A stretch of 64,000 nucleotides of DNA from Armatimonadota bacterium. GTDB lineage: Bacteria; Armatimonadota; SYMT01. The position numbers and the translations under genes were made by a program. The notes under the pieces were generated by a model. That model did not search any database, was not told the DNA's origin, and saw only the letters and a program-made list of their open reading frames with translations. The stretch's first letter is position 1, and every line of letters begins with the position of its first letter. The stretch is taken from NCBI GenBank assembly GCA_046292385.1, contig JBKBRF010000010.1, forward strand, positions 84,357 through 148,356. The letters run 5' to 3'. Shown one piece after another: positions 52,604 through 56,010 of this stretch.

Positions 52604-53326
52604 TCAGAACCCGACGTTCACCGCGATCCCGGGATAGCGGCCGCGGATCAGCAGCCCGCTGACGCTGTACCGGTCCCAGGAGTAGGTGACGAGCTGGTGG
52701 AAGGCGTGCCCGTCGAAGGTGGGCGTGACCGACCACTGGTCGCCGAGCCGGATTACCATGCCGAACGGATAGACCAGCTCATCGTCGAACGAGCCGTAGA
52801 GGACGCTGAAGTACGGAGCGATGGGGAGACCCGTCTCCCGCTCCAGGTCCTTGGAGATCGTGACGAAGTAGGCCCGGCCGTACGGCGTGCCGATCCGGTC
52901 CGACGAAGTGCCGACGCTCACTGCCGGGCGGGTGGCGGTTTCCCGCAGGAGCCGCCAGTTCACCAGCGGGCCGACGTCGTCCGCCAGCGGGTTGTACTCG
53001 ATGCCGACCTGCAGGTCCTGGCTCAAGCGGTACATCAGCGTGTTGCGCCACTTCGCCCGGTCGATCACCCCGTGGGGGATCACGCGGAGGCCGTAGTTGA
53101 AGCGTGTCGCCAGTAGGTTTCCTGAACCTCGCACGGAGGTTCCCTCGCCGGGTCAGCTCGGTCAGCTCGGGGCGGCCGAGCCGCCGGGGTTGGCCGGGTT
53201 CGGCGTGCCGGTCGGCGGGGCCGGGTGCTGATGCCCCGCGCCGGATTCGCCGGGAGGCGCCTGCGCGGCCGCCGGGGCCGCCAGCATCACGGCGGCGAGC
53301 GCCGCGGCGGATAGAAGTCTCTTCAT
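52604..53326 (-). CDS. Probable UxxU selenoprotein: secreted outer-membrane beta-barrel-like protein (240 aa, Sec55 and Sec58)
   Basis: GGAG RBS + ATG 53326, signal peptide MKRLLSAAALAAVMLAAPAAA; in-frame TGA at 53162-53164 and 53153-53155; same frame continues into ORF 52604..53134 ending GIAVNVGF. Confidence 0.75.
53124..53142 (-). promoter_or_regulatory. Putative bacterial SECIS hairpin
   Basis: mRNA GAACCUC-CGUGC-GAGGUUC starting 10 nt after the second UGA, with GU in the apical loop. Confidence 0.65.
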
Positions 53327-53424: not shown

Positions 53425-53817
53425 TCAGGCCGCGGGAGGTCCCCGTGGGGCGCAGAGCCGGAGCGACGGCGGCTCGCGCGGCGGCACGCTCCGCGGGCGG
53501 AGCGGAAGGATGAGACCGGTGTCTCCTGGCGAGTATGCAACACCCGGCGCGGGCAGGACGGCCGGCTCGAGCGTCAGCCGGCTCCCGGCCAGGGTCTCCG
53601 ATTCGTCCAGGCGGAAGTAGCACCCGCACGCCGGCGCCTTTATCCGGGCGAGCGGCGCAGCGCCTTCCTCGCCCTCACCGCAGCAGCAGGCCGAGCGGGT
53701 CGGCGGCTCGCACTGCCGCCCGTCGGCGCAGAACCAGCCTCCGGACCAGGTCCAGAGCGAGGCGAGCAGCAGCGGAAGCTGCGCCCATCTCCGCAGGCGG
53801 TGGGCTAGGAGGCGCAT
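53425..53817 (-). CDS. DUF2946/CruR/CutF-like Cys-rich leader protein with C-terminal RGPP arrest motif
   Basis: Basic/hydrophobic N-terminus, C-x5-C...CCC...CGC, Pro-rich linker, ends LCAPRGPPAA*. Confidence 0.7.
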   Translation of the reverse strand: MRLLAHRLRRWAQLPLLLASLWTWSGGWFCADGRQCEPPTRSACCCGEGEEGAAPLARIKAPACGCYFRLDESETLAGSRLTLEPAVLPAPGVAYSPGDTGLILPLRPRSVPPREPPSLRLCAPRGPPAA

Positions 53818-53862: not shown

Positions 53863-56010
53863 TCACGTTCCACCCGGCTTCGGCGCCGCCTCCGCCGGTC
53901 TCCACGCGAGCAGCCGGAGCCCGTTGAACACGACGAGGAGGCTGGCGCCCATGTCGGCGAAGACCGCCATCCAGAGCGTCGCCGCGCCGCCGAGCGCGAG
54001 CGCGAAGAAGACCGCCTTGATGCCGACGGAGAGGGCGATGTTCTGCGCCAGGATGCGCGCGGTCCGGCGGCTCAGCCGGATCAGCTCCGGCACCCCGCGC
54101 AGGTCGTCCCCCATCAGCGCCACGTCGGCCGTCTCCAGGGCGGTGTCGGTGCCGGCAGCGCCCATCGCGAAGCCGACCGACGCCCGGGCCAGCGCGGGCG
54201 CGTCGTTGATGCCGTCGCCGACCATCCCGACGTGCCGGTGCACCCGAAGTAGCTCCTCAATCGCCGCCAGCTTTTCCTCCGGCAGCAGGCCGCCGCGCGC
54301 GTCGTCGATCCCCACGTGCGCCGCCACCGCTTCGGCCGTCGCCCGGTTGTCGCCGGTCAGCATGACGGTGCGGACCCCCAGCGCGTGCAGCTCCCGCAGT
54401 GCCGCGGCGCTGTCTTCCCGGGGCTGGTCCGCCACTCCCAGCAGGAGCAGCGGCTCGCGCCCGTCGGAGAGGAGCACCGCGGTCTTTCCCTGCCGCTCCA
54501 GGGCACGCATCCGCTCGGCCGCCGCGGGGGTGGCAACGCCCAGCTCGTCCGCGAGGCGATGGTTTCCGACGTAGTAGCGCCGGCCGGCGATCTCGCCGCT
54601 CGCGCCGCGGCCGACCAGCACCTCGAACCGTTCCGCGGAGAGCAGGCCGGCCGGGTCGCCGCCGGTGGAGAGCCAGTGGGAGACGACGGCCCCCGCCACC
54701 GGGTGCTCCGAGTGGGCGTTCAGGCTGGCAGCGATCCGCAGCAGCTCCGGCGCGGGCGCGCCGTTGAGCGCAGCCAGGTCGGTGACCTCCGGCCGGCCGC
54801 GGGTGAGCGTGCCGGTCTTGTCGAGCGCCAGCACTCGCAGCCGCCGCACCTCCTCCAGGTAGACCCCGCCTTTGACCAGGATCCCCGCCCGCGCCGCGGC
54901 GGCGAGCCCGCTCACCACCGTCACCGGGGTGGAGAGGACCAGCGCGCACGGGCACGAGATGACCAGCAGCACCAGCGCGCGGTAGAGCCACTCCGGGAAC
55001 GAGGCCCCGAGCAGCAGCGGCGGAACGGTCGCCACTCCCACCGCGAGCGCCACGACCGCGGGGGTGTAAACGCGCGCGAAGCGGTCGATGGCGCGCTGGG
55101 TCGGGGCTCGCTGCGCCTGGGCCTCCTGGACGGAGCGGACGATGCGGTCGAGCGTGGTGTTCCCCCACGCCGCCGTCACCTCCACCTCCAGCACGCCGCG
55201 GCCATTCACCGTGCCGGCGAAGACCGGGTCGCCGGCGCCCTTCTCGGCCGGAATGCTCTCTCCGGTGATCGGCGCTTCGTCGACCGCCGAGCGGCCGGCC
55301 ACGACCGTCCCGTCGAGCGGCACCCGCTCTCCCGGCCGCACCCGCAGCACCGAGCCGGGCGGCACCTCCGCGGCCGGCACTTCCCGCCAGCCGCCGGGCG
55401 TGCGCAGTGTCGCCCGCTGGGGCGAGAGCTCCATCAGCGAGCGGACCGCATTCCGCGCGCGGTCGAGCGAATGAGCCTCGATCTCCTCCGCCAGCGCGAA
55501 GAGGACCGTAACCATCGCCGCCTCCGGCCACTCACCGATCGCGACGGCGCCGAGGATGGCGATCGACATCAGGAAGTTGATGTTGAGGGTGAACGAGCGG
55601 AGCGCGTAGAAGCCGCGGCGGAGCGTCTCGCGCCCGCCGATCAGGATCGCCGCCAGGGAGAGCAGCACCACCGGCGCGGAGGCCTCGGCGCCGGTGAGCC
55701 ACCCGGCCGATTCCGCCGCCAGCGCGCAGAGCCCCGCCGCCCCCAGCGGCACCCACTCTCGGAAGCGCGCGGCGGGCGCCTCCGACACGGTCTCCGAAGC
55801 CCCCGGGCCGCGGATCTCCGCCGCCATCCCGATCGACGCCAGTGCCGAGATCAGCTCCCGCTCGTCCGGCAGGCGGTGCTCCACCCGCACGTCGCGCTCC
55901 AGCAGGTTTACCTGCAGGTTCTCGATCCCACTGACCTTCGCCAGCCGCGCGCGGATCAGCTGCTCTTCGGTAGGGCAGCAGAGATCCGGAACGTGAAGGA
56001 CGGTGCGCAT
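53863..56010 (-). CDS. Heavy-metal-translocating P1B-type ATPase (ZntA/CadA-like)
   Basis: N-terminal HMA LCCPTEE, TGES, SCPC, DKTGT, SEHP, GDGINDAP, TM8 FADMG. Confidence 0.95.
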   Translation of the reverse strand: MRTVLHVPDLCCPTEEQLIRARLAKVSGIENLQVNLLERDVRVEHRLPDERELISALASIGMAAEIRGPGASETVSEAPAARFREWVPLGAAGLCALAAESAGWLTGAEASAPVVLLSLAAILIGGRETLRRGFYALRSFTLNINFLMSIAILGAVAIGEWPEAAMVTVLFALAEEIEAHSLDRARNAVRSLMELSPQRATLRTPGGWREVPAAEVPPGSVLRVRPGERVPLDGTVVAGRSAVDEAPITGESIPAEKGAGDPVFAGTVNGRGVLEVEVTAAWGNTTLDRIVRSVQEAQAQRAPTQRAIDRFARVYTPAVVALAVGVATVPPLLLGASFPEWLYRALVLLVISCPCALVLSTPVTVVSGLAAAARAGILVKGGVYLEEVRRLRVLALDKTGTLTRGRPEVTDLAALNGAPAPELLRIAASLNAHSEHPVAGAVVSHWLSTGGDPAGLLSAERFEVLVGRGASGEIAGRRYYVGNHRLADELGVATPAAAERMRALERQGKTAVLLSDGREPLLLLGVADQPREDSAAALRELHALGVRTVMLTGDNRATAEAVAAHVGIDDARGGLLPEEKLAAIEELLRVHRHVGMVGDGINDAPALARASVGFAMGAAGTDTALETADVALMGDDLRGVPELIRLSRRTARILAQNIALSVGIKAVFFALALGGAATLWMAVFADMGASLLVVFNGLRLLAWRPAEAAPKPGGT

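What the first reader, a model, noticed from the sequence alone, without database searches (positions are those of the whole stretch)
53124..53164. One SECIS-like hairpin positioned to serve two UGA codons
Seen: a perfect 7-bp stem GAACCUC/GAGGUUC around CGUGC (or a bulged C with a GUGC loop) begins 10 nt after the second UGA. The loop G follows the second UGA by 18 intervening nt and the first by 27. Codons across it (CGA GGT TCA GGA AAC CTA) are unusually A/T-ending for this genome, as expected under RNA-structure constraint. Established: bacterial SECIS elements lie just 3' of the UGA with a G(U) at the start of the apical loop. Inference: a single SECIS may drive both insertions.
Basis: partly seen in the sequence, partly recalled or inferred. 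Interest (0 to 1): 0.72.

Follow-up and report, generated by a model that had tools for sequence, protein, structure and literature searches.

The report
One SECIS hairpin, two selenocysteine codons
A small conserved RNA hairpin just after two in-frame UGA "stop" codons likely lets both be read as selenocysteine, in a predicted outer-membrane barrel protein that gene callers cut short and that the selenoprotein catalogue we read does not list.

Summary
The hairpin is present as described and meets the bacterial SECIS model from both UGAs. On its own it is only mildly unusual; the homologues decide the case.

The gene reads signal peptide, S-U-P-S-U-P-G-E-G, then a predicted 12-stranded outer-membrane barrel. 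The genome has selABCD. The family occurs in four states (UxxU, CxxU, UxxC, CxxC).

A G-first-loop hairpin with compensatory changes sits in one of two fixed registers in 45/55 UxxU and 11/14 CxxU clusters, but in 1/11 CxxC. In 8 of 9 UxxC genes, where only the first UGA remains, the hairpin stays in place; 0 of 20 CxxC sisters keep it. No second conserved SECIS appears.

One hairpin therefore likely serves either codon. That is comparative inference: nothing was assayed, and the UxxC genes use the other register.

A shared SECIS for UxxU has been proposed before. The barrel family is absent from the 119-family catalogue, NCBIfam and Pfam. This scan already noted the family on other DNA (four notes). 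The additions here are the four-state test and the two registers.

The parts
53124..53142 (-). SECIS-like hairpin: 7-bp stem GAACCUC/GAGGUUC, loop CGUGC (53135-53131) with GU at loop positions 2-3; register A (pairs +11/+29 to +17/+23 after UGA2)
   Evidence: covariation in 18 register-A clusters
53162..53164 (-). First in-frame UGA (predicted Sec55); loop starts 26 nt downstream
   Evidence: TGA in 177 and TGY in 7 of 184 close loci; sole UGA in 9 UxxC genes
53153..53155 (-). Second in-frame UGA (predicted Sec58); loop starts 17 nt downstream
   Evidence: TGA in 185 of the 186 close loci whose upstream stop could be read; Cys in UxxC and CxxC relatives
53264..53326 (-). Start ATG and signal-peptide-like N-terminus (MKR, Ala/Leu-rich core, AAA-Q cleavage-like site)
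   Evidence: judged by eye; no signal-peptide predictor was available
53165..53263 (-). Pro/Gly-rich linker ending in S-A-A-P-S; in relatives a TlpA/redoxin or YHS domain lies in frame upstream of the motif
53102..53152 (-). Conserved P-G-E-G segment and SECIS-coding codons; part of the N-terminal segment that likely plugs the barrel
   Evidence: plug position inferred from aligned ranges
52607..53101 (-). Predicted 12-stranded outer-membrane beta-barrel ending in Phe
   Evidence: AlphaFold2 pLDDT 93.7; structural matches
52604..53326 (-). Whole gene, 240 aa when both UGAs are read through; databases call only 52604-53134 (176 aa, from an internal GTG)

Best explanation
The hairpin is a conserved RNA stem-loop inside the coding region that likely acts as a bacterial SECIS element and likely directs selenocysteine insertion at both UGA codons of a U-P-S-U motif, in a predicted exported outer-membrane barrel protein. 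Inferred steps: SelB carrying Sec-tRNA binds the GU loop; the ribosome decodes UGA1 with the loop 26 nt ahead; SelB reloads on the still-folded hairpin; UGA2 is decoded with the loop 17 nt ahead; the ribosome then melts the stem. Shown directly: the sequence, the fit to the bSECIS model from both codons, covariation, loss in CxxC genes, retention in UxxC and CxxU genes, and selABCD in the genome. The protein's job is much less certain (about 0.5): most likely a small channel whose Sec-x-x-Sec site is a redox switch or soft-metal ligand on a periplasmic plug, serviced by the thioredoxin-like or YHS domains fused to it in relatives.
For: (1) Machinery: selA, selB (30), Sec-type selD (31) and tRNA-Sec (32) all pass their cut-offs. 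selB is found in 52 of 56 genomes with a strong family hit versus 215 of 401 genomes sampled (counted by eye; kin are not independent). (2) One protein: full-length Cys homologues carry signal peptide, CxxC and barrel in one chain, and one has C-x-x-W-P-G-E-G. (3) RNA-level selection over 81 clusters at 70% identity: mean z against synonymous recoding was -1.57 (UxxU, n=55), -1.91 (CxxU, n=14) and +0.03 (CxxC, n=11); control windows gave -0.09 to -0.25. (4) Covariation: register A 92% paired with 25 two-sided changes; register B 95% paired, all 7 pairs with two-sided changes; 0 of 500 shuffles reached either, and slid controls were 23-57% paired. Without sorting by fold, the fixed-register test passes 45/55 UxxU, 11/14 CxxU and 1/11 CxxC. 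(5) G at +23 is kept while the codon encodes Arg, Ser or Gly (54 of 54 main-clade clusters). (6) UxxC genes keep a stem of 5 or more bp with a G[GU] loop about 30 nt after their only UGA in 7 of 8, plus L306 read by eye; 0 of 20 CxxC sisters do. (7) No second conserved hairpin. (8) In this genome, SelD has a GUG-loop hairpin at +33/34 in 7 of 7 family genomes, and two UxxU Trx7/PDZ genes each show one AGGU-loop hairpin at the position used by their CxxU paralogue. The 26-nt distance is thus inside the range this organism's SelB appears to use.
Against: No experiment was done. The hairpin alone is weakly significant. The UxxC evidence is for register B in a distant subfamily, and no register-A UxxC gene was found. 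Of the 7 UxxC stems, 4 are weaker than the model's -7.5 kcal/mol (-3.5, -4.7, -5.9, -7.4), and the mean synonymous z of the 8 genes is only -0.81. L290 lacks the stem. The UxxC genes may be one clade that inherited the stem. Alignments A2 and A3 were sorted by each sequence's own fold, so their pairing percentages are partly circular. Recalled, paper not held: E. coli fdhF needs a tightly fixed UGA-to-stem spacing, so other SelBs may not reach a UGA three codons earlier. Metal-related neighbours turned up in only 3 of 24 loci.
Confidence: 0.85

Rival explanations
1. The hairpin is a SECIS for UGA2 only. UGA1 is read with help from a second or helper hairpin, or by SECIS-independent leaky read-through.
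For: The stem starts 10 nt after UGA2, close to the spacing recalled for E. coli fdhF. A 3-bp C1-C3/G9-G11 stem is possible, with positions 3 and 9 paired in 48% versus 39% shuffled. An alternative helix over UGA2 occurs in about half of the main-clade UxxU clusters. Earlier scan notes reported tandem or helper hairpins in other UxxU genes (unchecked).
Against: The alternative helix is only 56% paired, contains UGA2 itself and competes for the SECIS 5' arm. The pairing profile has no second peak of comparable size. In UxxC genes the window 10-36 nt after UGA1 shows no excess structure (mean z +0.13), while the distal hairpin is kept.
Confidence: 0.07
2. The same hairpin works, but one or both UGAs are read as cysteine by a SelB-dependent tRNA-ReC (SelC*), so the product is not a double selenoprotein.
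For: PMC13582414 (passages and discussion read) reports tRNA-ReC-like genes in 5 of 5 Armatimonadota genomes with UxxU hydrogenases and gives this caveat. ARAGORN calls a 97-nt tRNA-Cys(GCA) with a long variable arm about 2.4 kb from the selA reading frame.
Against: That call has an irregular acceptor stem and T-loop, and Rfam finds no tRNA family there even at E up to 10. A normal 72-nt tRNA-Cys and a normal tRNA-Sec exist. No tRNA-ReC model was available, so this is not excluded.
Confidence: 0.05
3. The UGAs are real stops. A short exported peptide ends there, the barrel is a separate gene restarting at the GTG in the loop behind a GAGG ribosome-binding-like stretch, and the hairpin regulates that start.
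For: Gene callers start here: most of the best 120 homologues are about 175 aa or shorter. The window has GGCGAGGG a few bases before GTG.
Against: The matching codon is GTG in only 11 of 54 main-clade clusters and otherwise GTC, CTC, GTT or ATC; only 15 of 69 clusters have any start-type codon in the 12 codons after UGA2. The barrel would lack an export signal. Cys homologues are one continuous chain. P-G-E-G varies synonymously.
Confidence: 0.02

Closest known systems
Bacterial SECIS (bSECIS) consensus model, as given in PMC13188914 Fig. 2A legend (passage read)
   Same: Loop 3-9 nt (here 5), upper stem 4-16 bp (7), G then G/U in the first two loop positions (C-G-U), 16-37 nt from the UGA (17 and 26), energy at most -7.5 kcal/mol (-10.1).
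   Different: Meets the spacing rule from two UGAs at once. Across the family the hairpin occupies two registers 4 nt apart that have changed several times on the tree.
UxxU Group 4 [NiFeSe] hydrogenases (PMC13582414; abstract passage, passages and discussion read)
   Same: UxxU with CxxU, UxxC and CxxC relatives; the authors raise the possibility of one downstream SECIS for both UGAs; loop G lost in Cys types.
   Different: Unrelated protein. Their UxxC type is in another subgroup (4e), whereas here UxxC and UxxU relatives keep the hairpin at the same position.
Selenoprotein L (SelL)
   Same: UxxU inserted with a single SECIS (stated for vertebrates in PMC3316567, passage read). That the bacterial SelL SECIS was described as placed to serve either or both codons is recalled from Shchedrina et al. 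2007, which was not held.
   Different: SelL is a soluble Prx-like protein; this is a predicted outer-membrane barrel.
12-stranded outer-membrane channels COG4313 (4rl8), FapF (5o65), KdgM (4pr7)
   Same: Fold: Z 16.3, rmsd 2.8 over 166 residues; Z 16.3, rmsd 2.2 over 163; Z 16.1, rmsd 2.4 over 152.
   Different: 7-17% identity; no profile match to any PDB sequence below E 0.6; a shared fold shows no function.
Outer-membrane selenoproteins in the catalogue: GSU2204/MtrB-PioB barrel (NF041027) and FCYXU TonB-dependent receptor (NF049945)
   Same: Sec in an outer-membrane barrel protein (Table 1 read).
   Different: Each is listed with one Sec; none of 79 family members matched either model at E 0.01.

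Membership tests
bacterial SECIS element | Stem-loop in the coding region just 3' of an in-frame UGA, loop 16-37 nt away | tested here: met
   17 nt from UGA2 and 26 nt from UGA1
bacterial SECIS element | 3-9 nt loop with G followed by G/U in the first two positions; 4-16 bp stem; at most -7.5 kcal/mol | tested here: met
   CGUGC loop, 7 bp, -10.1 kcal/mol; G among the first two loop positions in 68 of 69 UGA2-bearing clusters, but also in 8 of 11 CxxC best folds
bacterial SECIS element | Structure conserved in Sec-type genes and relaxed in Cys-type genes | tested here: met
bacterial SECIS element | Sec machinery (selA, selB, selC, selD) in the genome | tested here: met
bacterial SECIS element | Binds SelB and is needed for Sec insertion | not testable with these tools
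   needs a binding assay or reporter
single SECIS serving a UxxU pair (SelL-like arrangement) | Same hairpin kept when either UGA is the only one; no second SECIS | tested here: met
   CxxU 11 of 14; UxxC 8 of 9, register B only; no second peak
single SECIS serving a UxxU pair (SelL-like arrangement) | Two Sec residues in the protein product | not testable with these tools
   needs mass spectrometry or 75Se labelling
catalogued prokaryotic selenoprotein families (119 in PMC13188914 Table 1; NCBIfam 20.0) | Match to a family model | tested here: not met
   0 of 79 members hit a selenoprotein model at E 0.01; no row of Table 1 describes this motif or domain
YjbH (PF06082) | Pfam gathering score | tested here: not met
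   14-15 bits against a cut-off of 24; 1 of 79 members at E 0.0008; the Atlas shows YjbH-labelled look-alikes, so distant kinship is possible
COG4313 / FapF / KdgM 12-stranded channels | Sequence or functional membership beyond the shared fold | tested here: inconclusive
   fold matches are tied at Z about 16; no sequence match

The most novel reading that the evidence does not exclude
A widespread, uncatalogued family of small outer-membrane channels carries a diselenide-capable Sec-x-x-Sec gate on its plug, opened or loaded by fused thioredoxin or YHS metal-binding domains. Its single SECIS slides between two registers and serves either or both UGAs, giving a natural four-state series (UxxU, CxxU, UxxC, CxxC) that maps how far and how often one SelB site can reach.
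Probability: 0.4. Interest if true: 0.75.

Novelty: new variant of a known kind. Interest (0 to 1): 0.56.

Why it matters
Bacterial SECIS elements are usually treated as one hairpin per UGA, and recent work only raises the possibility of a shared one for UxxU motifs. This family supplies a comparative test: the hairpin stays put whichever of the two codons is UGA and decays when neither is. It also gives ready natural constructs for a reporter assay of SelB reach (17 to about 31 nt) and reloading, which bears on engineering proteins with more than one Sec. Separately, the 1,165 database hits look routinely truncated (most of the best 120 are), which hides an outer-membrane selenoprotein family. 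The RNA element itself is an ordinary bacterial SECIS.

Tried and rejected
Homologue search with the motif region alone found only truncated calls and no Cys forms; the Cys forms came from weak genome hits and a profile search.

Family models: no family in NCBIfam or Pfam, no PDB sequence match, no plasmid match.

Phylum search around G401: none of the 150 other genomes matched.

tRNA calls: the second ARAGORN 'tRNA-SeC' on C77 looks spurious, and the 97-nt tRNA-Cys(GCA) has no Rfam support.

No formate dehydrogenase passed the TIGR01553 cut-off and no listed match had an internal stop, so it could not serve as an in-genome SECIS control.

Sequencing runs were contigs only. An RNA-library contig covers 52789-53123 and stops short of the hairpin, so nothing is shown about expression. 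DNA contigs from two other studies cover the hairpin or the UGAs with no listed difference there.

A helix over UGA2 was rejected as a second SECIS. The promoter scan found nothing; one terminator-like site is at chance level.

Literature: 8 searches found no description of this barrel family. Three wanted papers were not held, including Haft and Tolstoy 2025, whose families appear in the Table 1 I read. The BSepDB supplement gave no hit for barrel, porin, outer membrane, YHS, UxxU or TlpA; since even YHS was missing, the family table may not be in the file searched.

Full report
Observation. The finding lies on the minus strand. Reading from the ATG at 53326 gives a signal-peptide-like start, a Pro/Gly linker, S-[TGA]-P-S-[TGA]-P-G-E-G, and then 178 more residues ending in Phe before a TGA at 52604-52606. 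Five of the six named codons end in A/T, against 6% in the rest of the gene. It passes every term of the published bSECIS model (PMC13188914, passage read) from both UGAs: loop 17 and 26 nt away, 7 bp, -10.1 kcal/mol. Alone it is not rare: 15 of 200 shuffles fold as well, and about 10-16% of ordinary in-frame positions pass the same rule.

The UGAs are sense codons. The genome has selA, selB, a Sec-type selD and tRNA-Sec. The downstream domain has 1,165 database relatives, and most of the best 120 are called at about 175 aa or shorter. I fetched 190 loci. Four were cut before the motif, one had TAA and 185 had TGA at the same place; one of those was too near a contig end. In the remaining 184 (168 distinct), the position three codons earlier was TGA in 177 and TGC/TGT in 7. 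Named carriers include Armatimonadota, Acidobacteriota, Planctomycetota, Verrucomicrobiota and Vulcanimicrobiota. Weaker genome hits gave the other states: CxxU, UxxC and CxxC. Full-length database proteins carry signal peptide, CxxC and barrel in one chain. selB was found in 52 of 56 genomes with a strong hit versus 215 of 401 sampled. One of the four without it has a Sec-type selD, and two are under 70% complete. A restart at the GTG in the loop is unlikely, because that codon is GTG in only 11 of 54 main-clade clusters.

The hairpin is under RNA-level selection. I reduced 216 distinct genes to 81 clusters at 70% identity and compared the fold of nucleotides +10 to +36 after the second position with synonymous recodings. 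One CxxC hit with a weak domain score (L259) was left out, as were hits without the motif, with a stop or an N in the domain, or under 120 codons. Mean z was -1.57 for UxxU (55), -1.91 for CxxU (14), +0.03 for CxxC (11) and -0.38 for the one UxxC; control windows gave -0.09 to -0.25. Of 69 clusters with UGA2, 60 fold in one of two registers: A (18 clusters, loop G at +19, as in the window) or B (42 clusters, loop G at +23). The 11 CxxC clusters fall at 11 different centres. Pair counts were 92% paired with 25 two-sided changes for A, and 95% with 85 for B; no shuffle reached these, and slid controls were 23-57% paired. These two alignments were sorted by fold, which inflates pairing. The unsorted fixed-register test gives 45/55, 11/14 and 1/11, and no cluster holds both registers. 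On a tree built without the SECIS codons, the register-A label needs 5 changes, at least 4 of them forced by well-supported branches. The hairpin has therefore shifted by 4 nt several times; the direction is not known.

One hairpin, two codons. If the hairpin served only UGA2, it should decay in UxxC genes as it does in CxxC genes. Two searches of 175 genomes of one family gave 9 UxxC genes. Seven of the 8 scored by script keep a register-B stem of 5-7 bp with a G[GU] loop about 30 nt after their only UGA; none of 20 CxxC sisters does. The ninth, L306, has a 6-bp stem with a GGUCC loop, read by eye. The outer pair +16/+32 appears as UA, GC and AU among them. L290 is the exception. The weak points are that four of these stems miss the -7.5 kcal/mol bar, the mean synonymous z is only -0.81, the genes are kin, and all are register B, so the step to the window's register-A hairpin is inference. 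The window's distance from UGA1 (26 nt) is shorter than theirs. No second SECIS emerged: the pairing profile has no comparable upstream peak, the region near UGA1 in UxxC genes has z +0.13, and the one recurring alternative helix is 56% paired and includes UGA2. In-genome controls agree. SelD has a GUG-loop hairpin at +33/34 in 7 of 7 genomes of the family. Two UxxU Trx7/PDZ genes each have one AGGU-loop hairpin about 25 nt after UGA2, where their CxxU paralogue has its hairpin.

Mechanism. Shown: sequence, model fit, covariation, state-dependent retention and machinery. Inferred from established SelB biology: SelB-GTP-Sec-tRNA docks on the loop, delivers Sec at UGA1, reloads while the stem is still ahead of the ribosome, and delivers Sec at UGA2. 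The amino acid could be Cys if a tRNA-ReC acts (caveat in PMC13582414, discussion read). A candidate 97-nt tRNA-Cys call exists but looks irregular and has no Rfam support.

The protein. AlphaFold2 on 79 read-through rows predicts a 12-stranded barrel (pLDDT 93.7). It resembles COG4313, FapF and KdgM at Z about 16. Alignments to the plugged barrels begin at model residue 2-8, which suggests that the segment after the motif lies in the lumen; I could not inspect coordinates. In relatives, a TlpA/redoxin or YHS domain is fused in frame ahead of the motif. Neighbours vary. From 23 loci I scanned 111 of 196 crude ORF calls, plus three N-terminal segments from other loci, and found metal genes at two loci (L008: P1B-ATPase and MerR; L032: cation efflux and PCYCGC); the window adds a Cd/Zn-type P-ATPase. 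A redox- or metal-gated small channel is my best reading, at about even odds.

What is known. The element is a standard bacterial SECIS. A single SECIS for UxxU is stated for vertebrate SelL (PMC3316567, passage read), recalled for bacterial SelL (Shchedrina 2007, not held), and proposed for Group 4 hydrogenases (PMC13582414). The barrel family is not in the 119-row Table 1 of PMC13188914 (read), in NCBIfam or in Pfam, and eight literature searches did not find it; subscription papers and some supplements were out of reach. PMC9312934, PMC2398784, PMC10778597, PMC1976440 and PMC13326102 were read as passages only. Earlier notes of this scan describe the same family on other DNA; they are unchecked and not counted as support.

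Verdict. This is a new variant of a known kind, interest 0.56.

Noticed in passing
window 53425-53817 (-): 130-aa Cys-rich ORF (CxxxxxxC, CCC, CGC) between the ATPase and the barrel gene; no NCBIfam or Pfam match at E 0.1; may be a small metal-binding protein.
   Followed up: partly
window 53863-56010 (-): Heavy-metal P1B-type ATPase (TIGR01525 and TIGR01512 over cut-off) upstream on the same strand.
   Followed up: partly
G000:C50:15281-16402, C39:50370-51512, C59:20602-21771 (L317, L319, L318): Three Trx7/PDZ (NF041199) genes: two U-E-R-U and one C-V-P-U, each with one AG-GU loop hairpin about 25 nt after the second position.
   Followed up: partly
G000:C11:87438-90278: selA, selD and selC lie together on one strand; SelD has two small hairpins after its UGA, the distal GUG-loop one kept in 7 of 7 genomes.
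   Followed up: partly
G000:C11:92717-92813 (L229): 97-nt ARAGORN tRNA-Cys(GCA) call with a long variable arm near selA; possible tRNA-ReC or a false call; no Rfam support.
   Followed up: partly
L216 (G314:C7), L297 (G583:C153), L219, L224: Tandem paralogues of the barrel family with different motif states side by side (UxxC next to CxxU; UTGU next to UPLU); up to 4 matches per genome.
   Followed up: no
L218, L222, L239, L223, L243, L245: Distant subfamilies use other hairpin registers with GCAAA/GCAGA or GUUCAA loops (loop G at +21 or +19).
   Followed up: no
P0131, P0165, P0151: Relatives with Trp in place of the second Sec (C-x-x-W-P-G-E-G) or with no Cys at all, suggesting loss of the site.
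   Followed up: no
L210-L213, L230, L232-L234: CxxC-type members carry long N-terminal regions with repeated Cys-Cys motifs; Pfam YHS confirmed for L211.
   Followed up: no
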